Assembly (NCBI GenBank): GCA_021788015.1
Contig: JAJYLD010000001.1
Span: forward strand, 209,581-273,580
Length of the DNA stretch: 64,000 nucleotides
DNA from: a bacterium
GTDB taxonomy: Bacteria > Patescibacteriota > Patescibacteriia > Patescibacteriales > JAKAJF01
Reading direction: 5' to 3'
Shown here: piece by piece, positions 24,372 to 55,745 of the stretch
Numbering within the stretch: position 1 is the stretch's first letter
Layout of the letters: each line of letters begins with the position of its first letter
Notes under the pieces: model-generated
Told to the model about the DNA's origin: nothing
What the model saw: only the letters and a program-made list of their open reading frames with translations
Database searches by the model: none
Program-made: the position numbers and the translations under genes

Positions 24372-24918
24372 ATTTTGTTATTAAATCGGACAGATCGGTG
24401 TTAATCTCCGCCTTTATGTCGAAATTTATATTGCTCTCCTCCAATATATTTTGCAAAGGGAAATTCACGTTGTTGAAATCATCGGAATTTTGCAAGTAAT
24501 CGTTCAATTTTAACAAGTCGGAACGCAACTGGGCCAAGCCGCTTATCTTCACGGTTTTGTCGGCATTGTTTATGCGTAAACTGGAAAAAGCGACATCGGA
24601 AGGAGTGTTTGAAGCCATGTCTTCGATTAAAAACGACCAAGGGAAAAAGTCATTTTGAATCCCGGAAACCGCGTTCAGTTGTTGATTTATCTCTCTGACC
24701 CTATCGTTATAAGATTGGGAATTTTTTGTTATCAAAGTGGTTTCGGCAACGATTTGATTAAAGCTTTCCTGCAAAAAATACTTTGCCAAAAGCAAACTTA
24801 TCGTGGAAATTAAAACTAAAAGAACCAAAATAAGACCGGCCGTTTTGATTAGGTTGTAAGCATGCTTTAATTTTACTTCATTTTTTAATTCCTGCGAGAT
24901 CAGGTTCAATTGCATCAT
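24355..24918 (-). CDS. pilN: Type IV pilus assembly protein PilN-like
   Basis: NLISQELKNE ... followed by a single TM (LILVLLVLISTISLLLA), the typical PilN N-terminus. It overlaps pilO by 17 nt. Confidence 0.7.
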   Translation of the reverse strand: MMQLNLISQELKNEVKLKHAYNLIKTAGLILVLLVLISTISLLLAKYFLQESFNQIVAETTLITKNSQSYNDRVREINQQLNAVSGIQNDFFPWSFLIEDMASNTPSDVAFSSLRINNADKTVKISGLAQLRSDLLKLNDYLQNSDDFNNVNFPLQNILEESNINFDIKAEINTDLSDLITKYAKNR

Positions 24919-24919
24919 A

Positions 24920-26044: not shown

Positions 26045-26213
26045 TATTTTGATTTTTAGGTGAACAGTTTTAACAAATAATCCTAAATCCTAATTTCTAA
26101 ATCACAAACAAATCCAAAATTATAAATTCCAGTGACAAAAAATTTTGAATTTTTAATTTTTTTATCATTTGAATTCGTTTAGAAATTAAATATCAGGATT
26201 CGAATTTTTTAAT

Positions 26214-27446: not shown

Positions 27447-27448
27447 AA

Positions 27449-28024
27449 TTAATTTCTTGGATAAACGCTTGTATCAAATTGCAAGGAACTGTTTCCTTTG
27501 GCAAAATCCATTGAAACGTTGACCAAGTCGCTTCCGGAAGACCAGAAGTTTAATTTTTGAAAATATTCGCCGACTATGCGATCTTCGAGCACCACTTCGG
27601 TGGGCGAATCTCCGAATTGATCGGTGCTGTTCCAATAAACATAAAGACTCGGATTGCTGTTAAAATAATAGGCGATTACGGATCTCATCAAATCGCCGTT
27701 GTTTAAATAGTAACGAATATAAGTGATGTTGCTTGTGTCATGGCCGTCTTGAAAAGTTATTTCATCCGACGGATTGGCAGAGTCGGTCGAAAGAGACGAA
27801 ATAATTTCCGGTGTCTGCCGTATTTCCCGAGACATTCTGTCCAATGAAACCCGTCCGTTTTGCGACAGCTCGTCCTCGTTTGAGCCGGCGCCGTATGATC
27901 TCTCGGCAAAAGAAAACATATTGCCCATGATTATGATAATAATCACAAACAGGGCCAAACTGACTATTATCTCAAGAAGAGAAAAACCGGCTGAATTTAT
28001 TTTTTTTCTTTTTTTACCCTTCAT
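27449..28024 (-). CDS. Prepilin-type N-terminal cleavage/methylation domain protein (minor pilin)
   Basis: The leader MKGKKRKKINSAG is followed by FSLLEIIVSLALFVIIIII (G/F cleavage motif with E5). Confidence 0.8.
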   Translation of the reverse strand: MKGKKRKKINSAGFSLLEIIVSLALFVIIIIIMGNMFSFAERSYGAGSNEDELSQNGRVSLDRMSREIRQTPEIISSLSTDSANPSDEITFQDGHDTSNITYIRYYLNNGDLMRSVIAYYFNSNPSLYVYWNSTDQFGDSPTEVVLEDRIVGEYFQKLNFWSSGSDLVNVSMDFAKGNSSLQFDTSVYPRN

Positions 28025-28437
28025 CTTTGGCTGATTAAAAGATTCAATGTATAGACTTTTTGATTTTTTAACGCATCCGCATAATACACGGAGGTTGAAA
28101 TTTTTTTCATTCCCGTTTCCGTCGCGCTTGGGTTTAAATTTCCGTCGACATATGAAATATCCGTTTCTCTTTGGAAATAATACATGTAATTCGACGTATT
28201 GTCGGAAAGCCGATGCAGTGTTTCAACCGTGCCCGTGGCTATATTGTTGTAACCTTCGGAAATTATGCTTTCAATTTCTCCTTGCGCGAGATAAGAAGCG
28301 ATAGACGCGTTTTCAGCTCCTTTGTTCAAGCCCAAAGAAATCGGGAAAGCCCCCATTAACGCGGTAAACGCGAAAGCGGTGATGGCAAAGGCCACCATGA
28401 TTTCGATTATAGTGAAACCGTTTTTATTTTTAAACAT
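28021..28437 (-). CDS. Prepilin-type N-terminal cleavage/methylation domain protein (minor pilin)
   Basis: The ATG at 28437 gives the leader MFKNKNG followed by FTIIEIMVAFAITAFAF. The tracked ORF extends to 28476, which would make the leader atypically long. Confidence 0.8.
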   Translation of the reverse strand: MFKNKNGFTIIEIMVAFAITAFAFTALMGAFPISLGLNKGAENASIASYLAQGEIESIISEGYNNIATGTVETLHRLSDNTSNYMYYFQRETDISYVDGNLNPSATETGMKKISTSVYYADALKNQKVYTLNLLISQR

Positions 28438-28498
28438 AAATTTAACTCGAGGATCGCAATTAATTTTAAAACTCAAATGTCAAATCCCAAAACAGTTT

Positions 28499-29014
28499 TT
28501 ATTGAGACAATTGAATATATCCTGACGGTTTGACATTAATAGTCTCGGTTTTGGTATTGTTTGACAAAACAATTGCTCCGGATTCATTTACGCCGCCAAA
28601 CGAATTAAAGATGACTTCGTTGTTCAGGACAGCATCGATTTGGCTGAATTCGACGCCCTGAGGCAGAGCAACCGATTTTATAGTCGTTGTCGCCGAACCC
28701 GTTTTAACAATCGAATAATTGTTCAGAGACGGATCGAGTTCGACTTCGTAAATATTTTGTTCAGAAATCGTCAATTGTTGGGCATAACGCAAATCGGAAG
28801 TCAAATTCTTCGCGGCTCCGTTAAGTTGAAGATCGGATTGGAACGCGTGCAGATACGGAGTCGAGATTGTCGTTAAAAGCGCGATAATGCCGATGCTTAT
28901 CAAAATATCAAGTAAAATCGCCCCTCTGTTATTCAGGTACCGACTGATTTTTATTGCTTTTTTTGTCATAATATTTGCGTTTTGGGTGTGAGACTTCTGC
29001 AAATTATAAATCAA
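28499..29014 (-). CDS. GspH/FimT-like minor pilin
   Basis: Hydrophobic pilin-like N-terminus (RGAILLDILISIGIIALLTT), then LQLNGAAKNLTSDLRYAQQL typical of GspH/FimT. The start may be the internal Met at 28969. Confidence 0.65.
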   Translation of the reverse strand: MIYNLQKSHTQNANIMTKKAIKISRYLNNRGAILLDILISIGIIALLTTISTPYLHAFQSDLQLNGAAKNLTSDLRYAQQLTISEQNIYEVELDPSLNNYSIVKTGSATTTIKSVALPQGVEFSQIDAVLNNEVIFNSFGGVNESGAIVLSNNTKTETINVKPSGYIQLSQ

Positions 29015-29026
29015 ATACCAAATTAA

Positions 29027-30166
29027 CTAAACCGCCGAAGTCAATGAATACATCGGCATGATAATGGCTATCGCCATGCCGCCGATGCCGCAACCCAGAA
29101 GAAGAATCAAAACCGGTTCAATTATGGCCGGAAGATTGGTCATAATTTGATCCACTTCTTCTTCGTAAAAAGAAGCCAATTCTTCGAGAATTGTATCCAG
29201 CTCGCCGGTTTGTTCGCCGACCGCGATCATTTGCCTGACCGTGGGCGGGAAAAGTTTTGGATACGCGCTTATAACTTCGTTTATTTGTCCGCCTTTTTTA
29301 ATTTTCTCTGCCATTTCGTCCATGGCTTTGCGATAATGCAGATTTCCAAGGACGTTGGCCGTAATCTGGAAACTTTTAATTATGGCGATATCGGTTTTTA
29401 AAAGCGAGCTTATGGTTCTGGCGAATTTGGCCAAATTGATTTTTTTGATGATATCCGAAAAAATCGGCAATTTAAGGAGAATGGAATGGAAGACGAATTT
29501 ACCTTTGTATGTGTGAAGAATTTTGTAAATTGCAGCGCAGACTACGATCAAAATAACAAGAGCAAGAATACCGTGTTGAACCAGGGCGTCGCTTACGGCG
29601 ATTAGAATTCTTGTTGCCAAAGGCATCTCCGCGTTAAAACTTTTCAGCATGTCCGTAATCTTGGGAACGACATAAATCATCATAAAAATGCCGATACCGC
29701 CCATGGCCGTGACGACTACAATCGGATATGTAAGGGCTCCTTTAACCTTTGAAATAAGTTCGTGCTGCTTTTTCAGCTGAATGAAAATCTGATGCAAAAC
29801 CTCCTCCAACTTACCGGAAATTTCGCCCGCCTCAACCATGCTTATAAAAAGGTCACCGAAAACTTTTCTGTGCGGCCTCAAACTCTCGGTAAAACTCACG
29901 CCGCGTTCGACATTTTTTGAAACATCGACAAGAATAAGTCTAAAGAACTTATTTTCCGTCTGCTCGGACAGAGTTTTTAAAGATATGGCCAGAGAAATGC
30001 CGGCCCTAAGCATGATGCCAAGATGCTGAACAAAAAATAACTTTTCCTTGATGGGAACCCCGGACAGTTTTATAAGAAGAAAATTGACTTTTTCGATAAA
30101 ATTTTTCTTTTCCTTGTCTTTTTCTTCTTCTTGGTTTGTTTTTTCCAAAACGAGATTGACCGGCAT
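29027..30166 (-). CDS. pilC: Type IV pilus platform protein PilC (T2SS F family)
   Basis: Duplicated T2SSF domains, three TM segments, and motifs such as GEISGKLEEVL and GEQTGELDTIL. Confidence 0.9.
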   Translation of the reverse strand: MPVNLVLEKTNQEEEKDKEKKNFIEKVNFLLIKLSGVPIKEKLFFVQHLGIMLRAGISLAISLKTLSEQTENKFFRLILVDVSKNVERGVSFTESLRPHRKVFGDLFISMVEAGEISGKLEEVLHQIFIQLKKQHELISKVKGALTYPIVVVTAMGGIGIFMMIYVVPKITDMLKSFNAEMPLATRILIAVSDALVQHGILALVILIVVCAAIYKILHTYKGKFVFHSILLKLPIFSDIIKKINLAKFARTISSLLKTDIAIIKSFQITANVLGNLHYRKAMDEMAEKIKKGGQINEVISAYPKLFPPTVRQMIAVGEQTGELDTILEELASFYEEEVDQIMTNLPAIIEPVLILLLGCGIGGMAIAIIMPMYSLTSAV

Positions 30167-30261
30167 ATGAGAAATTAAAAATTAAAAATGAAAAAATAAA
30201 AATAATTTGCGATCTTCAATTTTAGACATTGCGATTGCAATCGTAATTGAAAATTTTTAAT

Positions 30262-31470
30262 CTATTCAATTAACTTGCCTTCCGCGATCAATTCATCTTC
30301 GCATTTGTTGTCGATTAGTCGGAAGGCCGGATAAAGACTCAAGAAAATAATAAGAGCGAGCGCAAAAAATAGAACTCTGACCGGATAAAACAGAAGAATG
30401 AAAAAAGAAAGCGCCGAACCGAACAAATAAGCTATCGGGTTGGCCGTCCTGAAAAAATTATTCAAATCGACGTCGTGGCCGTCTATACGTTTATAAAAAT
30501 AAGAATCTCGGAGAGTTTGCAGAGAGGAAGCGCCTATTCTCGTAAAGACCAGAATCAGAATCCACAGTTTCAAACTCGGAACGGTCGTAAAAAAAACGGA
30601 CAAGGTGGCGATTCCCATAACAAAAAGCGCGGCAATCAGCAGTTCTTTTTCGCCCAATTTTTTGTCGGCGAGATAACCGATTGGGTAGGGCATAATGAGA
30701 AAAGGCACGAGCATGAAAGTAAAAATAATTCCGATTTGGCTCCAAGAAAATCCGATATCGCGAAGATAGATGGGGGAAAATATGACCATTATGGCAAAAA
30801 ATAATTCAAGAACGATGGAAACAGAATAAATTCGCATTATATTCGGTCTTTTTAATACTTTTTTCAGCAAGGCCTTTGTGCTTAATTTTTTATTGAATTT
30901 ATGATTAACTTGGCCCAACTTCAGAAGAGCGAGACTGAAAACGAAAACTACGATGATAAGCGCGGCGAAAAAAACATAGTGAAAACCGTATTTATTCAGG
31001 ATGTTCGTCGACAAAAACGGTCCTAAAACGTAGCCGCTTTCAAGGGCGATAATCTCCAATCCGCGAATTCGTCCGGAAAGTTTGTCGACTGAATATGATT
31101 CCAAAATAATATCAATAGCCACAGTGTCCAGAGGTACGAACATCATATAAACAAGCAAAAAGACTATGCTTGAAATTCCCGGTTTCAACATGACCAGAAA
31201 AAAGAGGGCAATGAGCTTTACTCCCAAAATTAAGAAAAGAGAATTTGATTTTCCGATCGATTTTACGATTTTATGGAGATTGAGCAATAAAACAAGCGCG
31301 ACGATACTTGTCCCAAAATAAAAAATACCCACGTTTTCGGTACCGATGGCGGCTTTAAAATAAGACGAGATCACATAAATTAAAACCGCTTGTGAAAATC
31401 CGATTAAAATCGAAATGAAATTGATAAAATTTATTTTTTTTCTGTTTAATTTTTCGTCGTGTTTTTTCAT
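30262..31470 (-). CDS. MFS transporter
   Basis: 402 aa and about 12 hydrophobic helices with a central loop. Substrate unknown. Confidence 0.7.
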   Translation of the reverse strand: MKKHDEKLNRKKINFINFISILIGFSQAVLIYVISSYFKAAIGTENVGIFYFGTSIVALVLLLNLHKIVKSIGKSNSLFLILGVKLIALFFLVMLKPGISSIVFLLVYMMFVPLDTVAIDIILESYSVDKLSGRIRGLEIIALESGYVLGPFLSTNILNKYGFHYVFFAALIIVVFVFSLALLKLGQVNHKFNKKLSTKALLKKVLKRPNIMRIYSVSIVLELFFAIMVIFSPIYLRDIGFSWSQIGIIFTFMLVPFLIMPYPIGYLADKKLGEKELLIAALFVMGIATLSVFFTTVPSLKLWILILVFTRIGASSLQTLRDSYFYKRIDGHDVDLNNFFRTANPIAYLFGSALSFFILLFYPVRVLFFALALIIFLSLYPAFRLIDNKCEDELIAEGKLIE

Positions 31471-31577
31471 ACGCGAACCTGCAAATTTAACGCGAATTTA
31501 CAAATATGCGAATTCGGCGCACCAATTTATTTAAAAAAATTTGCATATTTGTTATTTGATTTGTAATTCGTAGAAGT

Positions 31578-33320
31578 TTATTCTTTGGAAACGCGCATCA
31601 CTTCTTCGATACTCGTTATCCCGTTTTTCGCCTTGATAAATCCGTCTTCCGCCATGGTAACCATGCCCTGTTTTTCGGCCTGGGCTTTCAGTTCTTTGTC
31701 GGAGGCTCTTTTTAAAATCAACTCCGACATTTCTTCGGTGATTTCAAGAGTTTCGTAAATTCCGATGCGACCTTTGTATCCCGTATTATCGCATTGTTTG
31801 CATCCCTTGCCGCGATAGAAAAGCAAAGAATCGATGCCTTTTTCCGCGTCCATAATCACTTTGTTCGTTTCCAGCGTTTTTAAAATTTTATCGACATCGA
31901 ATTGTCCCTTCAATTCTTCTATATTCTTGCGGGTTAAATTGTAACTTTGAATGCAATTCGTGCATATTTTTCGGACAAGTCTTTGCGCGATAATGACGTT
32001 TGTCGTCGAGGCGACTAAAAAAGAAGCGATTCCCATATTAGACAAACGAGGCAGGGTGGTAATGGCGTCGTTGGTATGTAAGGTCGAAAGCACCAAATGG
32101 CCGGTCATGGCCGCATGAACAGCGATTTCGGCCGTTTCTTCGTCGCGAATTTCTCCAACCATGATAATATCGGGATCCTGGCGGAGAAGGGCGCGCAGGC
32201 CGGAAGCGAAAGTGAATCCGATTTTGGCGTTGACTTGCGACTGATTTACATGAGGCATGCGGTATTCGATCGGATCTTCGACGGTCGAAATGTTAACGCG
32301 AGGAGTATTAAGGATGTTCAAAATGGTATAAAGAGAAGTCGTTTTGCCGGAACCGGTCGGTCCGGTGACAAGTATCATCCCGTGGGGCTTGGCGATATTT
32401 CTTTTTATGGTTTCCAAGCTGTAAGGCTGAAGGCCAAGCTGTTCCAGAGTTAAAACCTGCGCTTTTTCGTTTAGAAGGCGCATAACGATTTTTTCTCCGT
32501 CAAAAGTGGGAATTATGGAAACGCGGAATGAAACTTGATATTCGGGATTGTTTATTTTGAACCGACCGTCCTGGGGCAACCTGTGCTCGTCCACCTTTAA
32601 ATTGGCCAAGATTTTTATGCGGGCGATAATTCCCGACTGCGCCGTTTTCGGCAAAGTCATAACATTGCGCAAAATGCCGTCTATGCGGTAACGGACGCTG
32701 ATTTCCTTTTCCCCCGGTTCGATATGAATGTCGCTGGCTCCTTCGAAAACGGCGTATTCGAGCAGTGTGTCGACAATCCTGACCACGGGCAAATCTTCCG
32801 CCATTTTTTTCAAATCCTGATCTCCTTCCGTTTCCGTCGAGCTTGCCCGATCATTATTTAAAGACAAAGAATTCAATTCCGCTTTTAGAGTTTTGTGATA
32901 TTGTTTGAGACCATCGCTTAAACTTTCCGGCGTAGTGAGGTATATCTCGGGTTCAAGCCCGGTCTTTTTCTTGATAAATTCGAATATTTCCAAATCCTCG
33001 CTGTCGAGAGTGGCGATTTTTATTTTCTTTGAATCGGCGTCAAAAGCGATTAGACTATGGGTTACGGCTATGGGTTCGGGAACGGAAAGAAGAACGTCTT
33101 TGCGGATTACCTGGTCTTTTAAGTTTATAAAAGGAACGTTAAAATAACCGGCGGCCGCTTCATACAAGGTAAGCTGGTTCGTTAATTTTTTTTCAATTAA
33201 GAATTCTTCAAGCCCCTTGCCGTTTTCTTCGGCCTCTTTAACCACTTTATTAAAATCTTTTTCGGATAAGATGTTGGCTTTGACGAGAATTTTTTTTAAT
33301 TGATCGTTATTTGCAAGCAT
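31578..33320 (-). CDS. pilB: Type IV pilus assembly ATPase PilB (GspE family)
   Basis: Walker A GPTGSGKTT, Asp/His boxes (VGEIRDEETA, GHLVLSTLHTN), a tetracysteine CTNC...CKQC, and an N-terminal GspE-N domain. Confidence 0.93.
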   Translation of the reverse strand: MLANNDQLKKILVKANILSEKDFNKVVKEAEENGKGLEEFLIEKKLTNQLTLYEAAAGYFNVPFINLKDQVIRKDVLLSVPEPIAVTHSLIAFDADSKKIKIATLDSEDLEIFEFIKKKTGLEPEIYLTTPESLSDGLKQYHKTLKAELNSLSLNNDRASSTETEGDQDLKKMAEDLPVVRIVDTLLEYAVFEGASDIHIEPGEKEISVRYRIDGILRNVMTLPKTAQSGIIARIKILANLKVDEHRLPQDGRFKINNPEYQVSFRVSIIPTFDGEKIVMRLLNEKAQVLTLEQLGLQPYSLETIKRNIAKPHGMILVTGPTGSGKTTSLYTILNILNTPRVNISTVEDPIEYRMPHVNQSQVNAKIGFTFASGLRALLRQDPDIIMVGEIRDEETAEIAVHAAMTGHLVLSTLHTNDAITTLPRLSNMGIASFLVASTTNVIIAQRLVRKICTNCIQSYNLTRKNIEELKGQFDVDKILKTLETNKVIMDAEKGIDSLLFYRGKGCKQCDNTGYKGRIGIYETLEITEEMSELILKRASDKELKAQAEKQGMVTMAEDGFIKAKNGITSIEEVMRVSKE

Positions 33321-47990: not shown

Positions 47991-49199
47991 ATGGAAAATA
48001 ATTCAATTCTTGACCAAATTATTTCAAACCAAAAGGCCGAAGAAATCGCCAAACTTAACGCCGTGGAGATTATCGGCAATATTTTCAGCAATTTAAACGA
48101 GCGCGAACGCGATGTTCTCAGCCGGAGATTCGGCTTGCGCGGAAACGGAAAAGAAACTTTGGAAAATATCGGCAAGGCGCATAATCTAACTCGCGAACGC
48201 ATCCGCCAAATTGAAATTTCCGGAATTAAAAAACTGCGCCAGCTCGATGAATTGGAAGATTACATAAAAGGCTTGCGCCATGTCATCACCCAGCTTTTGG
48301 AAGAACACGGCGGAGTCATGGAAAAAAATTATTTATTGAACAATTTGGTGAATTTTTCCGTTGACGGAGCCAAATCGGAAAATGTCGAAGAAATACATAA
48401 AAATCATCTCGATTTTCTTATCGCCAAACTTTTGCATAATGAATTCGAAGAAGTTCTCGATTCCGAATATTTCAAGGAATCGTTCAAATTGAAATATCAG
48501 ACTCTCGATCACCTTGAAGCACTGGCGAAAGAGTTGCTTGAAAAAATCCGTGAGATGAAACAAATTTTCTATACCCACGATCTTATCAATTTGGCCAAAG
48601 AACTTGATGGCTATAAAAATAACGAGGAAAAACTTAAAACTCCGAACAATATCGATATTTCCAGCGCTCTTAAAAGCGAATTGTTTGAAGAAGACTCCGA
48701 ACTTATTAATGAAAACAAATCTCTTTATTCTTTGCTCCGAGCCTTGAAACGGATTGAACAAAATAAATTCGGATATTGGGGCATCGAAGAATGGCGCGAA
48801 ATAAAACCGAAGACGATCAATGATAAAATTTATTTGATTCTTAAAAATAACGGTAAGCCCATGCATTTCGCCGAAATCGCCGCGAAGATCAACGAAATCG
48901 GTTTTGACGAAAAAAAAGCGAATCCGGCAACGGTCCATAATGAACTTATTCTCGACAAAAAATACATTCTTGTGGGACGCGGCCTCTACAGTCTTAAAGA
49001 ATGGGGGTATAAAAACGGCACGGTCGCGGACGTAATCGTCGATTTATTGAAAGAAAGTCCCGACGGCCTGACAAGGGATGAAATTATTAACAAAGTATTC
49101 GAACAGAGAATGGTAAAAAAGGCGACCGTAATTTTGGCTTTGATGGACAAAAATAAATTCGAACGGACGGAAAACGGGAAATATAAATTAAAAAGTTAA
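47991..49199 (+). CDS. Sigma-70 region 4-like HTH protein with a C-terminal HARE-HTH-like domain
   Basis: ERERDVLSRRFGL...ETLENIGKAHNLTRERIRQIEISGIKKLR is region 4. The C-terminal KIYLILKNNGKPMHFAEIAAKI...LVGRGLYSLKEWGY resembles the RpoE(delta)/HARE-HTH module. No region 2 was seen. Confidence 0.65.
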   Translation: MENNSILDQIISNQKAEEIAKLNAVEIIGNIFSNLNERERDVLSRRFGLRGNGKETLENIGKAHNLTRERIRQIEISGIKKLRQLDELEDYIKGLRHVITQLLEEHGGVMEKNYLLNNLVNFSVDGAKSENVEEIHKNHLDFLIAKLLHNEFEEVLDSEYFKESFKLKYQTLDHLEALAKELLEKIREMKQIFYTHDLINLAKELDGYKNNEEKLKTPNNIDISSALKSELFEEDSELINENKSLYSLLRALKRIEQNKFGYWGIEEWREIKPKTINDKIYLILKNNGKPMHFAEIAAKINEIGFDEKKANPATVHNELILDKKYILVGRGLYSLKEWGYKNGTVADVIVDLLKESPDGLTRDEIINKVFEQRMVKKATVILALMDKNKFERTENGKYKLKS

Positions 49200-49265: not shown

Positions 49266-49348
49266 AATCTCAAATCTCAAAAAGCAAAAATTAAAACTGT
49301 AACTTAAAACTAAAAAGTTTTGAGATTTGCCATTTGAGTTTTGAGATT
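49266..49348. repeat. AT-rich palindromic element (TCTCAAA word family), third locus
   Basis: AATCTCAAATCTCAAAAAGC ... GCCATTTGAGTTTTGAGATT form complementary arms, using the same words as 21152-21296 and 34981-35418. Confidence 0.65.
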
Positions 49349-49438: not shown

Positions 49439-49665
49439 TTTAGAAGCCGCGGTAGCTTTCACGGGAAGAATAGGTCTGATGTGAAATAAATTAAAATTTT
49501 TAACTTAGCAGATATAAATCAAATTTGATCGCGATCCCGATACAACAAATCCTGTCGGATTTGGCTACGGGACAAGTTCTATCGCACAAAACTTATTTTT
49601 AACCACGTCTCGCCCCGTAGTCACCGAGTTCACGAGGTGTACTACGGGGGTCTGCTTCTAACGGG
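49439..49665 (+). repeat. SCAIR element, long form, copy B
   Basis: The left arm is ATGAAT-CCCGTTTTAGAAGC and the right arm GTCTGCTTCTAACGGG ends at 49665, before ATG 49666. The core at 49522-49665 is nearly identical to 54048-54188. Confidence 0.8.
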
Positions 49666-51129
49666 ATGAATATCACCATTGATTTTAGCGCCATAAATAA
49701 TTTCTTAAACCAGCCGCTCGGCCCGTTGATGTGGCAAATTTTTTATACGATAGGATGGATTCCCGCCGTTTTTATCATGCTTTGGGGATTCAAGGAAATG
49801 TGGGTTGAGTATATACATAATCGTTGGGCGGGAGCGCAGAAAAAGATTTTATTGGCCATAGACATACCGCGCGGCAATACGCAATCTCCGCGAGCGGTCG
49901 AGAATATGTTCGCTTACCTCGCCGGCGCTCATGGCACCATCAATTTGGTTGAAAATTATTGGGAAGGGAAAATCCAGCTTTCTTTCAGCTTTGAAATCGT
50001 CAGCATAGACGGATATACTCAGTTTATAATCCGCACGCCCGAAGTTTTTCGCCATCTTGTCGAAACCGCGATTTATTCGCAATATCCGGACGCGGAAATC
50101 ACGGAAGTGAACGACTATATCGAAGGCATGCCGAAGAAATTCCCGGACGAAGAATACGACATGTGGGGGACGGAATTCATTCAGGCGAAAAACGAGGCCT
50201 ACCCCATTAAATTATATACGGAATTCGAGCACCAGATGGGCCCGGTGGAAACTTTTTATCGCGATCCCATGGCGGCATTGATGGATTTGTGCAGCAGTTT
50301 GCGCAAGGGGGAACAGCTTTGGTTCCAGATTATCGTCAAGCCCATCGACATGAACGAGTGGACAAAAATAGGGGACAAGGAGGCGGCGAAAATATTAAAA
50401 GAGAAGCCGGCGGAAGCCAAAGGAATTCTGCCTGGCATCGAAAAGGGTTTTTTTGGATTCTTTTCCGTATTGAGCGATATGATGGGATCCATGTTCGGCT
50501 ATGCTCCGGCGGAAAAGCAAAAGGAAGAAAAAAAGGATGAATCTCTCAAGATGATGCAGTTGAAACCGAAGGAGAGGAAACAGGTCGAGGCCGTTCACGC
50601 CAAAATTGGGAAAATCGGCTTTCATTGCAAATTTAGGTTTGTCTATATCGCGAAAAAGGACGTTATGAACAAACCGAAAGTCGTAAACGGTTTCGTGGGC
50701 TTCATGAAACAATTCGCGGCCATGGATTTGAACAATTTAAAACCGGATATGAAAAAAACCGCCACATCCGTTCATTATTTTTTTAAAAACTATCGCTTAA
50801 ACGGAAGGAAAAAAAGAGTAATAAGAAACTACATTGCCAGGGACGGAGGCAAAGGAAGGAAAATGGGTATTTTCACGACAGACGAATTGGCGACAGTTTG
50901 GCACTTCCCGGTCGAAAGCGTGGTCAAAGCCCCGATGATCCAGAAAGCGCCGGGAAGAAAGGCGGAGCCGCCATCAAGCCTTCCCATCGATATCGAACCG
51001 GCAAGCGAAGCCGTCTTCGAGCCGCGATTCCGAGAAGAAGTTCTCGGTCAAAAACCGAAGCAGATGCAGGAAGAAAAAATAAAAGAAGAAGAAAAAGGTT
51101 CGCCGCCGGACAATTTACCGTTTATTTAG
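49666..51129 (+). CDS. Hypothetical membrane-anchored protein, partner of the downstream TraD/VirD4-like ATPase
   Basis: 487 aa. One N-terminal TM (LMWQIFYTIGWIPAVFIMLWGF), a large soluble body and a Lys/Glu-rich C-terminus. No family recognised. Confidence 0.6.
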   Translation: MNITIDFSAINNFLNQPLGPLMWQIFYTIGWIPAVFIMLWGFKEMWVEYIHNRWAGAQKKILLAIDIPRGNTQSPRAVENMFAYLAGAHGTINLVENYWEGKIQLSFSFEIVSIDGYTQFIIRTPEVFRHLVETAIYSQYPDAEITEVNDYIEGMPKKFPDEEYDMWGTEFIQAKNEAYPIKLYTEFEHQMGPVETFYRDPMAALMDLCSSLRKGEQLWFQIIVKPIDMNEWTKIGDKEAAKILKEKPAEAKGILPGIEKGFFGFFSVLSDMMGSMFGYAPAEKQKEEKKDESLKMMQLKPKERKQVEAVHAKIGKIGFHCKFRFVYIAKKDVMNKPKVVNGFVGFMKQFAAMDLNNLKPDMKKTATSVHYFFKNYRLNGRKKRVIRNYIARDGGKGRKMGIFTTDELATVWHFPVESVVKAPMIQKAPGRKAEPPSSLPIDIEPASEAVFEPRFREEVLGQKPKQMQEEKIKEEEKGSPPDNLPFI

Positions 51130-51317
51130 TGACAAAAATAAAATTTTAAATTCTAATTTCTCAATCCTAAATTTATAGATCCAAATTACCAAAACGTTTT
51201 GAATTTTTATTTTTTGTCATCCGATATCGTTTGGAGTTTAGATATTATAAATTTTAGAATTTCAATTTGAGTTTTAGATTTTAATATTGCTTCGAATTTA
51301 GAATTTAAAATCATTTT

Positions 51318-53108
51318 ATGGATAACGAAATAACAGTATTCGCGGAAACGACTTTCCGCAATCATCATCGAAAATTCGGAATAAAAATCGACGATCGTCG
51401 CCGACATATGTATTTGATCGGGAAAACCGGTATGGGCAAATCGACCATTTTGGAAAATATGATTGTCGAGGACATCCGGGCCGGAAAAGGCGTCGCCGTA
51501 GTCGATCCGCATGGCGATTTGGCGGAAAAAATTATCGAGTTCATTCCCTCCGGCCGCGTCAATGACGTCGTTTATTTCAACCCCGCGGACATGGAATTCC
51601 CGATCGCTTTTAACGTTGTCGAACATGTCGAGCCACACTTGAGACATCTCGTCGCTTCCGGGCTTTTGGGAGTCTTTCAAAAATTATGGGCTGATTCATG
51701 GGGTCCTCGTTTGGAATATATTTTGCGCAACGCCATTTTGGCGATTCTTGATTATCCTGGCTCCACGCTTCTCGCCGTTACCAGAATGCTTTCCGATAAA
51801 GCCTTCAGAAAAAAGGTTATTGAAAAAATTCAGGATCCGGTCGTTAAAGCTTTTTGGGTCAATGAATTCGCCGGCTATGCCGACAAGTTCGCTTCCGAAG
51901 CGGTTTCTCCTATCCAAAACAAGGTCGGACAATTTTTGTCGAGTTCTTTGATTCGCAATATCGTCGGTCAAGTAAAATCCTCGATCGACGTCAGAAAAAT
52001 AATGGACGAAGGAAAAATTTTGATCATGAATTTAAGCAAAGGAAGAATCGGAGAAGATAACTCGGCGCTTTTGGGCTCTATGATGATCACAAAAATCCAG
52101 CTCGCGGCCATGAGCCGGGTCGATTTGCCGGAAAAGGACAGAAAAGATTTTTATCTTTATGTCGATGAATTTCAAAATTTCGCGACGGACAGTTTTGCCA
52201 ATATTCTTTCCGAAGCGAGAAAGTACCGTTTGAACTTGATCATGGCTCATCAATACATCGAACAGCTCGGCGAAAAAGTCAAGCCGGCCGTTTTCGGCAA
52301 TGTCGGCACTCTGATTGTTTTTAGGGTCGGAGCGGTCGACGCCGAAGAATTGGTAAAAGAATTTACGCCGACTTTTATGGAAGAAGACATCGTCAATTTG
52401 CCCAAATATGAATTTTATATAAAACTGATGATTGACGGGGTCGCTTCAAACCCGTTTTCCGCGCGCGGTTTGCCGCCTCTTGAAGAGGATGAAAAAACCG
52501 GCAATATCGAAAAGATCATAAAAGTTTCGCGTGAGCGTTATGCGAAAAAACGATCCGAGGTTGAAGAAAAAATCGCCCGTTGGCATATGAGCATAGAAGA
52601 AACGGAAGTAAAAAATTCGGCCGCGACAAAAGATAAAAGGAGAGAAGAAAAAGAACCTTGGAAAGAAAAAAACAAAAAAGTCGAATATTTGAAGCCAAAG
52701 ACCGAATTCGGGCGGGAAGAAAGAAAGACGGAAAGAAGCGATCGGGACAAGACGAATAAAAAGGAGGACGCTTTTCAATACGCGGCCGTTTGTTCACGAT
52801 GCGGAAAGGAAACGAAAATTTCTTTCGTGCCCGACGGTATTCGGCCGATATTTTGTAAAGATTGTCTCGCGATCGCGAAAAAAGAAAAACAATCGGAAGT
52901 CGAAACAAGAAAAAAAATGAAAATGAGGGAACTTGAAAAAATATCCCCGGCGGAAATCGATTCTCGGCCCGAGATGTCTCTGTCCCAACTTTCAAAGGAC
53001 AATATTGTAAGTTTTAAATCGGACAAAGATGGTTCGGCTCCGAAAATTGCCGATCCAAAAGCATTCGAGGGAAAATTAGAAGATGGTAAAGAGGTTAATT
53101 TTGAATAA
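51318..53108 (+). CDS. TraD/VirD4/HerA-like P-loop ATPase with a Lys/Glu-rich tail and a C-terminal CxxC...CxxC zinc ribbon
   Basis: Walker A GKTGMGKST, DPHGD, Walker B-like FYLYVDEFQNF, RKYRLNLIMAHQ, and the C-terminal CSRCGKETKISFVPDGIRPIFCKDC (52791-52865). Confidence 0.75.
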   Translation: MDNEITVFAETTFRNHHRKFGIKIDDRRRHMYLIGKTGMGKSTILENMIVEDIRAGKGVAVVDPHGDLAEKIIEFIPSGRVNDVVYFNPADMEFPIAFNVVEHVEPHLRHLVASGLLGVFQKLWADSWGPRLEYILRNAILAILDYPGSTLLAVTRMLSDKAFRKKVIEKIQDPVVKAFWVNEFAGYADKFASEAVSPIQNKVGQFLSSSLIRNIVGQVKSSIDVRKIMDEGKILIMNLSKGRIGEDNSALLGSMMITKIQLAAMSRVDLPEKDRKDFYLYVDEFQNFATDSFANILSEARKYRLNLIMAHQYIEQLGEKVKPAVFGNVGTLIVFRVGAVDAEELVKEFTPTFMEEDIVNLPKYEFYIKLMIDGVASNPFSARGLPPLEEDEKTGNIEKIIKVSRERYAKKRSEVEEKIARWHMSIEETEVKNSAATKDKRREEKEPWKEKNKKVEYLKPKTEFGREERKTERSDRDKTNKKEDAFQYAAVCSRCGKETKISFVPDGIRPIFCKDCLAIAKKEKQSEVETRKKMKMRELEKISPAEIDSRPEMSLSQLSKDNIVSFKSDKDGSAPKIADPKAFEGKLEDGKEVNFE

Positions 53109-53213
53109 AAAATGTCTAAATTATAATTTCCAATTTCTAAATTTAGGAATTGGGAATTTTATTAGACCTTATAATTTAGAAATTAGAAATTTTTGTCATT
53201 ACTCTCGCCTATT

Positions 53214-54017: not shown

Positions 54018-54188
54018 TAATATGCAGATTATAGAATCAAAATTTTTTTTGATCGCGATCCCGATACAACAAATCCTGTCGGATTTGGCTACGGGACAAG
54101 TTCTATCGCACAAAACTTATTTTAACTACGTCTCGCCCCGTAGTCACCGAGTTTACGAGGTGTACTACCGGGGTCTGCTTCTAACGGG
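53952..54188 (+). repeat. SCAIR element, long form, copy C
   Basis: The left arm ACGAAT-CCCGTTAGAAGC lies inside the 3' end of the PHP gene, and the right arm GTCTGCTTCTAACGGG ends at 54188, before ATG 54189. Confidence 0.8.
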
Positions 54189-55745
54189 ATGGATTATCTA
54201 AAAATTGGAAAAGCCACGGATCTCGATGGCGGGGATAAAAAATTATACCGGTTTTTGGAAATTCTTCCCGGCTCGCTTTCCTGGGCGACTTTAATCATTT
54301 TAACTTTGGCATCTTATCTCTGGCCGGTATGGGCGGCTTATTTTATTATCGCCTTTGACGTTTATTGGCTCTTATTGGTCGCTTTTCTTGGAATTCATTT
54401 GATTGTCAGTTATCGCAAATTGACGCAAAACAAAAAAGTGAATTGGGAAAAGGAATGTGAAAAAATCGATCTTTCCGATTCCGGTTTCAGTTTCGATTCC
54501 TGGCGAGACGTTTATCATCTCATAATTTTCCCGACCTATAACGAGAGCCTGGAAATTATCCGCCCCAGCATAGAAAGCGTTTTAAACGACGGCTATCCTT
54601 TGGATAAAATTATTCTGGTTTTGGCGATTGAAGAACGCGGCGGTCCCGAAGCTTTGGAGCGCGCGAAAACGATCGAGCGAGAATACGGAAATAAATTCGG
54701 ACATTTTTTAATTACCACCCATCCCGATGGAATTGTCGGAGAACTTAAAGCAAAGGGCGCGAACCAAGCATGGGCGGCCCGAGAGGTCAAAGAAAAAATT
54801 ATCGACAAAGAGGGGATCGATTACGATCGTATACTTGTGAGCGTTTTTGATATCGATACGATTGTGGATAAAGGTTATTTTTTCCGTCTGACCCAAAAAT
54901 TTTTAACTTCAAAAAATCCTTATCGCGCCAGTTATCAGCCGGTTCCTGTTTATTTCAACAATCTTTGGGAAGCGCCTTTTTTCGCGCGCGTGGCCGCATC
55001 CTCGAACACTTTTTGGCAAATGATGCAACAGATCAGGGAAGAAAAATTGGCGACGTATTCATCTCACTCTATGACATGGAAAGCTTTGGTTGAAATAGGA
55101 TTTTGGTCGACAAGTATGGTTAGCGAGGACTCAAGAATTTTTTGGCATTGTTTTTTGTATTATAACGGCGATTATCGAGTGGAACCGCTTTATTTTCCGG
55201 TATCGATGGACGTTACCATGGATGAAAGCTTTAAAAAAACCATGATCAATTTGTACAAACAGCAAAGGAGATGGGGCTGGGGCGTGGAAAATTTGCCCTA
55301 TCTTATGTTTAATACGATAAAAAGATGGAAAATTTTGCCAAAAAAAGGAAAAATGATCAATCGCATTTCGGTTCAACTTTATGGATTTCACTCCTGGGCG
55401 ACAAACGCCCTTATTATCGGTATTATCGGTTGGTTTCCCGTTCTTCTTGGGGGGGGGCGGTTTAATTCCACCGTGCTCTCCGGAAATTTACCTTATATAA
55501 GTCGAACGTTAATGACCTTGGCTATGGGCGGCATGGTTTTATCGGCCGTCGTTTCAACATTGCTTTTGCCCGAAAGACCGAAAAGATACGGATTTATAAA
55601 AAATATTATCATGTTTTTTCAATGGTTGATTCTGCCATTGAGCATAATTATTTTCGGATCCATCCCCGGGTTGGAGGCGCAGACTCGCTTGATGTTGGGC
55701 AAATATATGGGTTTCTTTGTTACGCCGAAAGCGAGAAAAAGTTAG
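54189..55745 (+). CDS. Membrane-embedded GT2-like synthase with a QxxRW motif
   Basis: N-terminal TMs, a GT-A-like core (IIFPTYNESLE, VFDIDT, SEDSRIF), YKQQRRWGWG, and C-terminal TM helices. Confidence 0.75.
   Translation: MDYLKIGKATDLDGGDKKLYRFLEILPGSLSWATLIILTLASYLWPVWAAYFIIAFDVYWLLLVAFLGIHLIVSYRKLTQNKKVNWEKECEKIDLSDSGFSFDSWRDVYHLIIFPTYNESLEIIRPSIESVLNDGYPLDKIILVLAIEERGGPEALERAKTIEREYGNKFGHFLITTHPDGIVGELKAKGANQAWAAREVKEKIIDKEGIDYDRILVSVFDIDTIVDKGYFFRLTQKFLTSKNPYRASYQPVPVYFNNLWEAPFFARVAASSNTFWQMMQQIREEKLATYSSHSMTWKALVEIGFWSTSMVSEDSRIFWHCFLYYNGDYRVEPLYFPVSMDVTMDESFKKTMINLYKQQRRWGWGVENLPYLMFNTIKRWKILPKKGKMINRISVQLYGFHSWATNALIIGIIGWFPVLLGGGRFNSTVLSGNLPYISRTLMTLAMGGMVLSAVVSTLLLPERPKRYGFIKNIIMFFQWLILPLSIIIFGSIPGLEAQTRLMLGKYMGFFVTPKARKS

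What the first reader, a model, noticed from the sequence alone, without database searches (positions are those of the whole stretch)
49666..53108. Two-gene module: an orphan membrane protein plus a TraD/VirD4-like ATPase with a zinc-ribbon tail, outside any conjugation context
A 487-aa protein has a single N-terminal TM and no recognisable domain. It is followed, after an AT-word hairpin spacer, by a 596-aa P-loop ATPase with motifs of the FtsK/HerA/TraD-VirD4 clade (GKTGMGKST, DPHGD, YVDEFQNF, MAHQ). No relaxase, VirB4, pilus-biogenesis or plasmid genes accompany them. The ATPase ends in a roughly 150-aa Lys/Glu/Arg-rich low-complexity tail and a CxxC-x17-CxxC ribbon (CSRCGKETKISFVPDGIRPIFCKDC, 52791-52865), which looks like a nucleic-acid-binding appendage. 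The module is preceded by a long SCAIR copy, and another copy follows the adjacent PHP phosphoesterase gene. A dedicated membrane-associated DNA or RNA translocation device, for uptake or export in an organism with a type IV pilus, is a reasonable but unproven reading.
Basis: partly seen in the sequence, partly recalled or inferred. Interest (0 to 1): 0.55.

Follow-up and report, generated by a model that had tools for sequence, protein, structure and literature searches.

The report
Split membrane-anchored VirD4-like ATPase of Patescibacteria
These two genes are the two halves of one membrane-anchored motor protein, related to the "coupling" ATPases of bacterial conjugation systems, that is found (split or fused) across the ultra-small Patescibacteria and in some large Bacillus phages; its job is still unknown.

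Summary
No conjugation, T4SS or relaxase gene lies in the 64 kb.

The upstream protein is not an orphan. It is a DUF8128 (PF26449) protein with more than 2,000 clusters at 50% identity. Many Patescibacteria, and Bacillus phages G and SPO1, encode DUF8128 and the ATPase as one polypeptide. A Berkelbacteria protein of 937 aa aligns colinearly to protein 1 and then protein 2, with five residues between the two matches. The window therefore holds a gene-split form, and its ATPase half carries a CxxC-x17-CxxC zinc-ribbon tail.

The ATPase is nearest to T4SS coupling proteins (TrwB, DotL), but it lacks their transmembrane domain and their gene context. The predicted DUF8128 fold weakly resembles VirB4.

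The literature already counts about two such "T4CP homologues" per Patescibacteria genome, nearly all far from virB4 and of unknown function.

Most likely this is a two-piece, membrane-tethered ring ATPase that recruits a substrate through its tail and passes it to a separate channel, possibly the chromosomal T4SS. The substrate and the partner channel are unproven. I rate it a new variant of a known kind, of moderate interest.

The parts
49524..49665 (+). Structured leader repeat that ends at the start codon of protein 1. It is one of three copies in the window.
   Evidence: Direct repeat family. Alignment of the three copies. A 17-mer gives 3 hits against 0.06 expected. RNA fold -49.5 kcal/mol, z = -3.07. 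No Rfam match.
49666..51129 (+). Protein 1 (487 aa): DUF8128 (PF26449) membrane protein, the N-terminal half of the split machine.
   Evidence: ORF. 1,742 homologues carry PF26449. Colinear with aa 5-382 of the fused protein P0424. AF2 model pLDDT 80, pTM 0.74.
49726..49782 (+). Single transmembrane helix (aa 21-39). The charge pattern suggests N-terminus outside and the rest cytoplasmic.
   Evidence: Hydropathy scan. Flank charges: aa 1-20 net -1 with no K/R; aa 40-60 has four K/R. The fused relatives P0424, P0430 and P0451 have the same N-terminal helix.
49843..50946 (+). Globular alpha/beta DUF8128 domain (aa 60-427), with a low-confidence helical insert at about aa 250-297.
   Evidence: AF2. 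Foldseek PDB: the top 11 hits are all TrwK/VirB4, E 5.6e-4, TM about 0.3. Foldseek viral: phage G gp156 at 1.3e-16, gp155 at 1e-5.
50962..50985 (+). Junction motif AEPPSSLP (aa 433-440). In fused relatives this motif directly precedes the ATPase.
   Evidence: P435, P436 and P440 are invariant. Fused proteins read '...GEPPANLP', then 10-20 aa, then the ATPase.
50986..51099 (+). Disordered acidic linker of variable length (aa 441-478).
   Evidence: pLDDT below 50. Length is 33-106 aa across 68 homologues.
51100..51126 (+). Conserved C-terminal peptide SPPDNLPFI, a second copy of the junction motif. Proposed tether to protein 2.
   Evidence: P481, L484 and P485 are invariant and N483 nearly so, at the extreme C-terminus in 68 sequences. 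The tether role is inferred.
51130..51317 (.). AT-rich spacer with imperfect inverted repeats between the two genes.
   Evidence: In relatives the gap is 6-587 nt, median 63.
51318..52592 (+). Protein 2 ATPase core (aa 1-425): VirD4/TraD-class P-loop ATPase with no transmembrane segment.
   Evidence: Pfam TrwB_AAD_bind 43.1 bits, DUF87 31.4, TraG-D_C 25.9, all above cut-off. PDB sequence hits: TrwB, and with the family profile TrwB and DotL. 60% identical to aa 388-804 of fused P0424. No hydrophobic segment.
51420..51446 (+). Walker A motif GKTGMGKST (aa 35-43).
   Evidence: Invariant in 54 homologues.
52158..52181 (+). Walker B region YVDEFQNF (aa 281-288).
   Evidence: Y281, D283, E284, F285, Q286, N287 and F288 are invariant.
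52593..52775 (+). Lys/Glu/Arg-rich disordered linker (aa 426-486).
   Evidence: Aa 424-486 (63 residues) hold 20 K+R and 17 D+E. Length is 45-174 aa in homologues. pLDDT about 30-45.
52791..52865 (+). CxxC-x17-CxxC zinc ribbon (C492, C495, C513, C516).
   Evidence: Pfam PF23477 and TIGR04272 above cut-off. The four Cys are invariant. Local pLDDT 85-90. Zinc binding by this domain type was shown for M. mazei small proteins (PMC12704099).
52866..53108 (+). Conserved basic helix after the ribbon (to aa 541), then a variable acidic tail.
47991..49199 (+). Context: sigma-70 region 4 plus HARE-HTH protein, the commonest upstream neighbour of protein 1.
   Evidence: Pfam and NCBIfam. Directly upstream in 63 of 80 loci. 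Not related to the phage relaxase gp27.3.
54189..55745 (+). Context: membrane GT2 glycosyltransferase (518 aa), a recurrent downstream neighbour that carries the same leader repeat (54048-54188).
   Evidence: Pfam Glyco_trans_2_3. Downstream in 35 of 46 loci that have protein 2, and in 6 of 6 neighbourhoods sampled from the protein 2 side. Leader copy.

Best explanation
The two genes encode the two halves of one machine. In many other Patescibacteria and in large Bacillus phages the same parts form one polypeptide, in this order: an N-terminal membrane helix, a DUF8128 domain, a short proline-rich 'PPxNLP' junction, and a VirD4/TraD-class P-loop ATPase. Here the gene is split at that junction.

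Shown: this architecture, the homology and the split.

Inferred:
- Protein 1 sits in the cytoplasmic membrane with its DUF8128 domain in the cytoplasm. That domain acts as a docking platform, and its predicted fold resembles VirB4.
- Protein 1's flexible tail ends in a second PPxNLP peptide that holds protein 2 in trans.
- Protein 2 assembles into a ring ATPase, like its solved relatives TrwB, DotL and HerA.
- Protein 2's flexible charged linker, basic zinc ribbon and helix form a substrate- or adaptor-recruiting arm, analogous to the C-terminal extensions of TraD, VirD4 and DotL.
- One membrane helix per subunit cannot form a pore, so the motor must hand its substrate to a separate channel. 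The most likely partner is the chromosomal type IV secretion system that most Patescibacteria carry elsewhere, whose own cluster lacks a recognisable coupling protein.

The substrate (nucleic acid or protein) is unknown.
For: Fusion and colinearity:
- P0424 aa 5-382 matches protein 1 aa 18-441 (E 2.5e-46).
- P0424 aa 388-804 matches protein 2 aa 2-420 at 60% identity. P0430, P0451, P0486 and phage G gp156 show the same order.
- HMMs built from split and fused members hit gp156 and SPO1 gp27.4 in both halves.

Adjacency:
- Protein 2 is directly downstream of protein 1 in 46 of 73 informative loci, median gap 63 nt.
- DUF8128 is directly upstream of the ATPase in 6 of 6 neighbourhoods sampled from the protein 2 side.

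ATPase class:
- Pfam TrwB_AAD_bind, DUF87 and TraG-D_C are above cut-off.
- The best PDB sequence relatives are TrwB and DotL.
- The ATPase HMM scores TrwB 38 bits, TrsE 31, TrsK 21 and FtsK 7.
- Foldseek on the weak protein 2 model returns only HerA, DndH, Cag-beta and TrwB.

DUF8128 fold:
- The top 11 PDB matches are all TrwK/VirB4.
- It also matches phage G gp155, a VirB4/TraG-type ATPase with an N-terminal domain.

Tether and topology:
- The PPxNLP junction and C-terminal motifs are conserved, with variable linkers between them.
- Topology follows from the charge distribution around the helix.

Link to T4SS:
- One fused relative lies next to a PrgI/VirB4 cluster.
- 148 of 5,713 patescibacterial T4CP homologues lie near virB4 (PMC12102498).
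- The essential Saccharibacteria T4SS cluster lacks a recognisable coupling protein (PMC10633639).
- Phage homologues sit beside a MobC-like relaxase and were proposed as a coupling ATPase (PMC3357382).
Against: - No T4SS gene lies in the window or in 8 of the 9 distinct neighbourhood types sampled. About 97% of the T4CP homologues are far from virB4.
- T4CP homologues are reported in 96% of genomes but VirB4 in only 80%, so some genomes may have the ATPase without a T4SS.
- The Southlakia t4cp homologue was reported as non-essential while the T4SS genes are essential.
- The VirB4 resemblance of DUF8128 is weak (TM about 0.3) and has no sequence support.
- The protein 2 model is poor (pLDDT 56), so the ring assembly and the all-alpha domain rest on homology.
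- Protein 1 is not followed by protein 2 in 27 of 73 loci.
- That the literature's 'T4CP homologues' are this family is my inference. It rests on the shared profiles and on the count of about two per genome.
Confidence: 0.5

Rival explanations
1. The motor works independently of any T4SS in cell-envelope or cell-division biology. It could move DNA at the division site as an FtsK-like pump, or it could act with the neighbouring membrane glycosyltransferase and wall-synthesis enzymes.
For: - The module lies in a conserved mreB-mreC-murB ... DUF8128-ATPase-(PHP/DUF1361)-GT2 block.
- The DUF8128-ATPase-GT2 part persists where the upstream context differs.
- The window region is rich in dcw genes: MraY, FtsW, MurG, MurC, MurB, DivIC, FtsEX.
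- Protein 1, the GT2 and an S41 peptidase share one leader element.
- The family is more widespread than VirB4.
- The ATPase core is very strongly conserved, at 70-80% identity.
Against: - All sampled split loci come from one fairly close lineage, so shared gene order may only reflect ancestry.
- Fused paralogues sit in other housekeeping contexts, such as dnaX-serS and gyrBA.
- FtsK profiles score poorly: PF01580 13 bits against a cut-off of 24, and 7 bits with the family HMM.
- No ATPase of this class is known to act on polysaccharide.
Confidence: 0.25
2. One reading: a dedicated nucleic-acid uptake or export motor that works with the type IV pilus/competence apparatus to feed a nucleotide-auxotrophic cell.
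For: - Patescibacteria lack nucleotide synthesis and may consume host nucleic acid (bioRxiv 10.64898/2026.06.21.733656).
- The ATPase belongs to a class of DNA-dependent ring translocases.
- The zinc ribbon and following helix are basic.
- A pilus cluster lies in the same window.
Against: - The pilus cluster is about 17 kb away and no sampled neighbourhood links the two.
- No ComEC or ComFA-type gene lies nearby.
- ComEC loss did not affect viability in Southlakia (PMC12857230).
- Nucleic-acid binding by the tail is untested.
Confidence: 0.12
3. A domesticated phage or mobile-element gene, or an anti-phage defence ATPase of the HerA/MADS type.
For: - PADLOC mad8 hit at 6.7e-18, plus HerA models.
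- The only non-patescibacterial family members found are in Bacillus phages.
- PHROG 5156 covers both halves.
Against: - There are no partner defence genes. MADS is an 8-gene operon, and no Sir2, nuclease or methyltransferase lies nearby.
- The setting is a stable housekeeping context across species.
- Distribution is near-universal and sequence conservation is high.
- IMG/VR viral contigs gave no relatives of protein 1.
Confidence: 0.05
4. The split is a broken (pseudogenised) fused gene rather than a working two-protein system.
For: Fused versions exist. The spacer here, at 188 nt, is longer than the median of 63 nt.
Against: - Both halves are intact ORFs with their own start codons in at least 46 species.
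- Both halves are under strong conservation.
- The split forms have gained their own features: the C-terminal PPxNLP peptide on protein 1 and the zinc ribbon on protein 2.
Confidence: 0.02

Closest known systems
Type IV coupling proteins (VirD4, TrwB, TraD, DotL/IcmO)
   Same: P-loop ATPase with the same motif set (GxxGxGKS/T, DPxGD, hhhhDE). Pfam TrwB_AAD_bind and TraG-D_C are above cut-off. TrwB and DotL are the best solved-structure relatives by sequence. Both have a flexible C-terminal extension that could recruit substrates.
   Different: The ATPase chain has no two-helix N-terminal membrane domain. Instead a separate (or fused) one-helix DUF8128 module of about 370 aa is present. There is no relaxase or T4SS neighbourhood. 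The protein scores far below the equivalog cut-offs (for example TraD 53.7 bits against 366). It carries a zinc-ribbon tail.
VirB4 (TrwK) T4SS ATPase, including VirB3-VirB4 fusions
   Same: The overall order of membrane anchor, large N-terminal domain and C-terminal ATPase is the same. The predicted DUF8128 fold has VirB4 as its only significant PDB match.
   Different: There is no sequence-level similarity in the N-terminal domain. The ATPase scores lower against VirB4 than against T4CPs. No VirB3/6/8 neighbours are present.
Fused DUF8128-ATPase proteins of Patescibacteria (for example P0424, P0430, P0451), counted as 'T4CP homologues' in PMC12102498
   Same: They belong to the same family and are colinear over both halves, with up to 60% identity in the ATPase. 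They also sit in chromosomal housekeeping contexts.
   Different: They are a single polypeptide, they lack the zinc-ribbon tail, and they lack the extra C-terminal PPxNLP copy.
Bacillus phage 'coupling ATPase' (SPO1 gp27.4, 0305phi8-36 orf201, phage G gp156; PHROG 5156)
   Same: Both halves are homologous: the DUF8128 HMM gives 92-136 bits and the ATPase HMM 122-207 bits. They were proposed as a DNA translocase (PMC3357382).
   Different: They are fused. Phage G gp156 has no N-terminal membrane helix; SPO1 gp27.4 was not scanned. They lie next to a MobC-like relaxase (SPO1) or a VirB4-like ATPase (phage G). They have no zinc ribbon. Deletion of the 0305phi8-36 operon (orf201) gave no lab phenotype.
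HerA / FtsK ring translocases
   Same: Same ATPase superfamily. DUF87 is above cut-off. HerA is the top fold match for the weak protein 2 model.
   Different: No NurA or Sir2 partner. FtsK profile below cut-off. No gamma domain and no multi-pass membrane domain.

Membership tests
Type IV coupling protein (VirD4/TrwB/TraD) | Nucleotide-binding domain with T4CP-type Walker A/B motifs, recognised by the family profile | tested here: met
   PF10412 scores 43.1 bits against a cut-off of 20.5, over aa 22-341. TrwB and DotL are the top PDB sequence hits.
Type IV coupling protein (VirD4/TrwB/TraD) | All-alpha domain inserted between Walker A and Walker B | tested here: inconclusive
   The PF10412 alignment runs through this region, and predicted helices span aa 109-230. 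The AF2 model there is low-confidence, however.
Type IV coupling protein (VirD4/TrwB/TraD) | N-terminal transmembrane domain (usually two helices) on the ATPase polypeptide | tested here: not met
   Protein 2 has no hydrophobic segment. Protein 1 supplies a single helix plus a 370-aa domain.
Type IV coupling protein (VirD4/TrwB/TraD) | Genetic association with a relaxase and/or virB4-type T4SS genes | tested here: not met
   None in the 64-kb window. Only one sampled relative, L087, is adjacent to VirB4/PrgI. The rest of this genome could not be examined.
Type IV coupling protein (VirD4/TrwB/TraD) | Score at equivalog level in curated models (TraD, CD1115 VirD4-like) | tested here: not met
   TIGR03743 scores 53.7 against 366. 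NF045973 scores 37.1 against 250.
Type IV coupling protein (VirD4/TrwB/TraD) | Hexameric, DNA-stimulated ATPase that recruits secretion substrates | not testable with these tools
   Needs biochemistry.
VirB4 | VirB4 family profile match | tested here: not met
   TIGR00929 scores 18.1 bits against a cut-off of 643. TrwK scores -0.1 bits with the family ATPase HMM.
VirB4 | VirB4-type N-terminal domain preceding the ATPase | tested here: inconclusive
   In Foldseek the top 11 hits are TrwK/VirB4 (probability 0.57-1.0, E from 5.6e-4), but TM is about 0.3. There is no sequence or profile signal.
DUF8128 (PF26449)-ATPase family | PF26449 domain in the N-terminal part | tested here: met
   Precomputed PF26449 on the identical protein P0001 and on nearly all homologues. 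The name DUF8128 appears. My own HMM links the split, fused and phage members.
DUF8128 (PF26449)-ATPase family | Colinearity of DUF8128 and the T4CP-like ATPase with fused members | tested here: met
   five residues lie between the two matches in P0424.
FtsK/SpoIIIE | FtsK_SpoIIIE motor profile, multi-pass membrane domain, gamma domain | tested here: not met
   PF01580 scores 13.4 bits against a cut-off of 24. E. coli FtsK scores 6.7 bits with the family HMM.
HerA | HerA central domain profile | tested here: met
   PF01935 scores 31.4 bits against a cut-off of 23.2. This domain model is also matched by T4CP/VirB4-class proteins (TrsE is annotated DUF87), so it does not discriminate.
HerA | Partner nuclease or effector (NurA, Sir2, DUF4297) in the same operon | tested here: not met
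   The neighbours are sigma/HARE-HTH, PHP and GT2.
MADS defence system (mad8) | Presence of the other mad genes in one operon | tested here: not met
   Only protein 2 hits mad8. MADS is an 8-gene operon, and none of the neighbours matches.
CxxC-x17-CxxC zinc ribbon (TIGR04272 / PF23477) | Four Cys with the defining spacing, above the curated cut-offs | tested here: met
   The four Cys are invariant in 54 homologues.

The most novel reading that the evidence does not exclude
DUF8128-ATPases may be a separate, phylum-wide lineage of FtsK/HerA-superfamily pumps, beside VirD4 and VirB4 rather than within them. On this reading they work without a T4SS. They would be a membrane-tethered motor that moves host-derived nucleic acid, or another polymer, for these auxotrophic epibionts, or they would act with the envelope-synthesis machinery encoded around them. 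The split form with a zinc-ribbon arm would be a lineage-specific elaboration of that motor.
Probability: 0.2. Interest if true: 0.8.

Novelty: new variant of a known kind. Interest (0 to 1): 0.5.

Why it matters
Patescibacteria make up a large share of bacterial diversity and depend on host cells. About 96% of their genomes are reported to carry VirD4-like ATPases, roughly two per genome, and almost none of these lie next to a secretion system. What they do is an open question (PMC12102498).

This analysis adds four things:
- The family has a defined N-terminal module (DUF8128) with a possible VirB4-like fold.
- Split and fused forms are the same machine.
- A proline-rich junction peptide is a candidate tether between the halves.
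- The split forms carry a zinc-ribbon arm.

These points give concrete constructs and predictions for the genetically tractable Saccharibacteria and for Bacillus phage SPO1. If the family proves to be the missing coupling protein of the essential patescibacterial T4SS, or a T4SS-independent translocase, either result would help explain how these cells exchange material with their hosts.

Tried and rejected
- TrsD, the known free-standing VirB4-N-terminal-like protein: hhalign of the protein 1 family against pSK41 TrsD gave probability 0.4% and no HMM signal. Rejected as a sequence relative.
- A third conserved component upstream of the fused genes: the small ORFs (114-173 aa) are conserved only within lineages and have no counterpart in the window. 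Dropped.
- The upstream sigma/HARE-HTH protein as a relaxase analogue: no similarity to SPO1 gp27.3. It looks transcription-related.
- Viral contigs (IMG/VR) searched for protein 1 relatives: none confirmed.
- Structure of protein 2: the AF2 model was poor (pLDDT 56), probably because the alignment held only sequences at least 68% identical. Its fold matches support the superfamily only.
- Sequence-profile search of PDB with the protein 1 family: nothing significant. The diverse fused profile hit only through the ATPase half.
- Defence reading (mad8/HerA): no partner genes.
- Rfam for the leader repeat and spacers: only the tRNAs and a spurious miRNA match on an AT hairpin.
- Promoter and terminator scans: counts were at shuffle level and uninformative.

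Full report
**1. What is in the sequence**

The two ORFs are real: 49666..51129 (+, 487 aa, protein 1) and 51318..53108 (+, 596 aa, protein 2).

- Protein 1 has one hydrophobic helix at aa 21-39.
- Protein 2 has none. It carries GKTGMGKST (35-43), DPHGD (63-67), YVDEFQNF (281-288) and MAHQ (309-312). All are invariant or nearly so in 54 homologues.
- The CxxC-x17-CxxC ribbon is aa 492-516, nt 52791-52865, as stated. It passes the curated cut-offs of Pfam PF23477 and TIGR04272.
- The tail is better described as four parts: a K/E/R-rich linker of about 60 aa, the ribbon, a conserved basic helix to aa 541, and a variable acidic end.
- The 188-nt spacer holds AT-rich imperfect inverted repeats. 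Similar ones follow the upstream gene and protein 2, so they are a general intergenic feature of this genome.
- The database start of protein 1 (466 aa) is 21 codons too short. The first 21 residues are conserved in homologues.

**2. Context**

Pfam scans of about 50 ORFs show a chromosomal housekeeping region. It contains:

- rhamnose and glycosyltransferase genes, MurA, an S41 peptidase and CTP synthase;
- a type IV pilus cluster at about 23.8-33.3 kb;
- MraY, FtsW, MurG, MurC and MurB;
- a sigma-region-4/HARE-HTH protein, then proteins 1 and 2, a PHP phosphoesterase and a membrane GT2;
- DivIC, two tRNAs, a PBP5-like carboxypeptidase, FtsE and FtsX.

There is no VirB4, relaxase or other T4SS gene. 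'Outside any conjugation context' holds for the window. The rest of the genome could not be examined.

**3. Protein 1 is not an orphan**

- It has 1,742 significant hits at 50-65% identity, almost all carrying Pfam PF26449, which is named DUF8128.
- An exhaustive profile search finds 2,267 clusters at 50% identity.
- The local Pfam copy lacks this model, which explains the empty result.
- No paper in the searchable library mentions PF26449 or DUF8128.

**4. The two genes are one machine**

- PHROG 5156 (824 positions) matches protein 1 with its N-terminal part and protein 2 with its C-terminal part.
- Phage G gp156 (825 aa) aligns to protein 1 at aa 32-157 and to protein 2 at aa 372-822.
- A search with gp156 found many patescibacterial proteins of 725-990 aa that combine PF26449 with PF10412, PF01935 and PF12696. 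They come from Berkelbacteria, Falkowbacteria, Saccharibacteria and Gottesmanbacteria.
- The Berkelbacteria protein P0424 (937 aa) matches protein 1 aa 18-441 with its aa 5-382 (31% identity, E 2.5e-46). It matches protein 2 aa 2-420 with its aa 388-804 (60% identity). Five residues lie between the two matches.
- In fused proteins the order is: membrane helix, DUF8128, '...EPPANLP', 10-20 residues, then the first strand of the ATPase.
- Protein 1 keeps that junction motif (AEPPSSLP, aa 433-440). After a variable disordered linker of 33-106 aa it ends in a second, conserved copy (SPPDNLPFI). I infer that this terminal peptide tethers protein 2 in trans. This is not shown.

**5. Synteny**

- Among 80 species-level genomes with a protein 1 homologue, 73 have enough downstream sequence to judge. 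In 46 of these protein 2 follows directly, with a gap of 6-587 nt (median 63). In 27 it does not.
- In two of those (L045, L012), unrelated genes follow protein 1: a glycosyltransferase in one and an undecaprenyl-phosphatase-like membrane protein (my reading, not profile-tested) in the other.
- From the protein 2 side, 6 of 6 sampled genomes have DUF8128 directly upstream and a GT2 of 507-545 aa within two genes downstream.
- The sigma/HARE-HTH gene is directly upstream of protein 1 in 63 of 80 loci.
- All these genomes are fairly close relatives, so gene order alone is weak functional evidence. The fusions are the strong evidence.

**6. What class of ATPase**

- Pfam TrwB_AAD_bind (43.1 bits), DUF87 (31.4) and TraG-D_C (25.9) exceed their cut-offs. 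FtsK_SpoIIIE does not.
- NCBIfam conjugative TraD and VirD4-like models hit, but far below equivalog cut-offs. VirB4 scores 18 bits against 643.
- By sequence, the nearest solved structures are TrwB and, with a diverse family profile, DotL/IcmO. DptH and HerA follow. VirB4 is not significant.
- An HMM built from split and fused members scores as follows:

| Reference | Bits |
|---|---|
| TrwB (R388 T4CP) | 38 |
| TrsE (pSK41 VirB4) | 31 |
| TrsK (pSK41 T4CP) | 21 |
| FtsK (E. coli) | 7 |
| TrwK (R388 VirB4) | about 0 |

- The AF2 model of protein 2 was poor (pLDDT 56). Its fold matches (HerA, DndH, Cag-beta, TrwB) support only the superfamily.
- Conclusion: a divergent branch nearest the coupling proteins. 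It is not a canonical member, because the N-terminal membrane domain and the gene context that define T4CPs are absent.

**7. The DUF8128 domain**

- The AF2 model is good in the core (pLDDT 80, pTM 0.74). It has a long helix at aa 18-57, an alpha/beta domain at aa 60-427, and a disordered tail.
- The charge distribution around the helix puts the domain in the cytoplasm.
- The top 11 Foldseek PDB matches are all TrwK/VirB4 of R388 (E from 5.6e-4, probability 0.57-1.0). TM-scores are only about 0.3.
- In the viral library it matches gp156-type proteins strongly. It also matches phage G gp155, a VirB4/TraG-type ATPase with its own N-terminal domain.
- No sequence-level link to VirB4 N-terminal domains or to TrsD was found.
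- I treat 'VirB4-N-terminal-like' as a moderate lead, not a result.

**8. Wider family and literature**

- Fused members lie in housekeeping contexts. In Falkowbacteria the order is ferredoxin, a small ORF, the fused gene, dnaX, serS. In Saccharibacteria the gene lies near gyrBA.
- One fused member lies next to a PrgI/VirB4 cluster.
- In Berkelbacteria two paralogues sit in tandem. One is an 829-aa type. The other is the 937-aa type that corresponds to proteins 1 and 2.
- Quinonero-Coronel et al. 2025 report 5,713 VirD4-like T4CP homologues in 2,918 of 3,035 Patescibacteria genomes. Only 148 are near virB4. VirB4 itself is in 2,417 genomes. They note that the t4cp gene may have been exapted, since the Southlakia homologue was not essential.
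- About two per genome fits the two paralogue types seen here. That these are the same proteins is my inference.
- Wang et al. 2023 note that the essential Saccharibacteria T4SS cluster lacks recognisable coupling and relaxase proteins.
- For the phage branch, Pathria et al. 2012 proposed 0305phi8-36 orf201 / SPO1 gp27.4 as the coupling ATPase of a phage 'DNA translocation operon'. It lies beside a MobC-like relaxase, and its deletion had no laboratory phenotype.
- Zinc binding by CxxC-x17-CxxC domains was shown for M. mazei small proteins.

**9. Mechanism**

Shown: the split and fused architecture, the ATPase class, the conserved motifs, and the zinc-ribbon domain.

Inferred:
- Protein 1 anchors the complex and presents a cytoplasmic platform.
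- Its tail peptide binds protein 2.
- Protein 2 forms a ring motor.
- The linker, ribbon and helix recruit a substrate or an adaptor.
- Six single helices cannot form a channel, so a separate channel is needed.

I favour the chromosomal T4SS as that channel, at about 35-40%. A T4SS-independent envelope or division role is next at about 25%. A pilus/competence-linked uptake motor is about 12%. Defence or mobile-element origin, and pseudogenisation, are unlikely.

**10. Verdict**

The 'orphan' claim is wrong. The interpretation as a single translocation module is right in outline, but the module is not unique to this locus. It is the gene-split, zinc-ribbon-bearing variant of a catalogued but uncharacterised, near-universal patescibacterial family. 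Interest is moderate, because the family's function is a real open question. The locus itself adds a variant, not a new kind of system.

Noticed in passing
window 15025-15247, 49524-49665, 54048-54188: A structured repeat of about 125-150 nt has three + strand copies. Each runs right up to the start codon ('...TCTAACGGGATG') of an envelope-related gene: the S41 peptidase, protein 1 and the GT2. The first copy has an internal insertion of about 78 nt. The RNA fold has z = -3.07, and an outer stem pairs with the start-codon region. There is no Rfam match, and the element is absent by exact 17-mer search from 80 related loci. It could be a shared 5' regulatory leader.
   Followed up: partly
window 49266-49348, 51130-51275, 53111-53191: AT-rich 'word' inverted repeats of 17-33 nt arms (for example AATTTCTAAATT / AATTTAGAAATT) occupy the spacers after three consecutive genes. 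They may be terminator-like elements typical of this genome. One gave a spurious miRNA Rfam hit.
   Followed up: partly
window 47991-49199: A 402-aa protein has sigma-70 region 4 at its N-terminus and an RNAP-delta-like HARE-HTH domain at aa 276-338. It is the most conserved upstream neighbour of protein 1 (63 of 80 loci). A shorter variant (matching aa 1-338) accompanies the loci where protein 2 is not adjacent. Its function is unknown.
   Followed up: partly
window 54189-55745: A membrane GT2 (Glyco_trans_2_3, with a weak PgaC/IcaA-like hit) stays linked downstream of the ATPase even where the upstream context changes (L093, L097). It shares the leader repeat with protein 1. This may reflect co-regulation or only inherited gene order.
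   Followed up: partly
L090 2432-4921 and 5535-8348: Two paralogous fused DUF8128-ATPase genes (829 and 937 aa) lie in tandem in a Berkelbacteria contig, separated by a 173-aa ORF. This suggests two distinct paralogue types per genome.
   Followed up: partly
L081 2223-6365; L082 3747-7284: In phage G the family member gp156 directly follows gp155, a VirB4/TraG-type ATPase whose predicted structure also matches protein 1. In SPO1, gp27.4 is followed by gp27.3, annotated 'replication initiation by nicking'.
   Followed up: partly
L087 3264-9187: One patescibacterial fused DUF8128-ATPase, which lacks the N-terminal membrane helix, is divergently adjacent to a PrgI-like gene and a VirB4 that is itself split into 387- and 231-aa ORFs.
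   Followed up: no
window 49666-49728: The public annotation of protein 1 (466 aa) starts 21 codons downstream of the conserved N-terminus. The 487-aa ORF is supported by homologue conservation and by one Logan record.
   Followed up: yes
window 23817-33320 (- strand): A complete-looking type IV pilus cluster is present: PilO, PilN, PilM, a PilX-like protein, pilins, a GspH-like protein, PilC and PilB, with an MFS transporter gene inserted between PilC and PilB.
   Followed up: no
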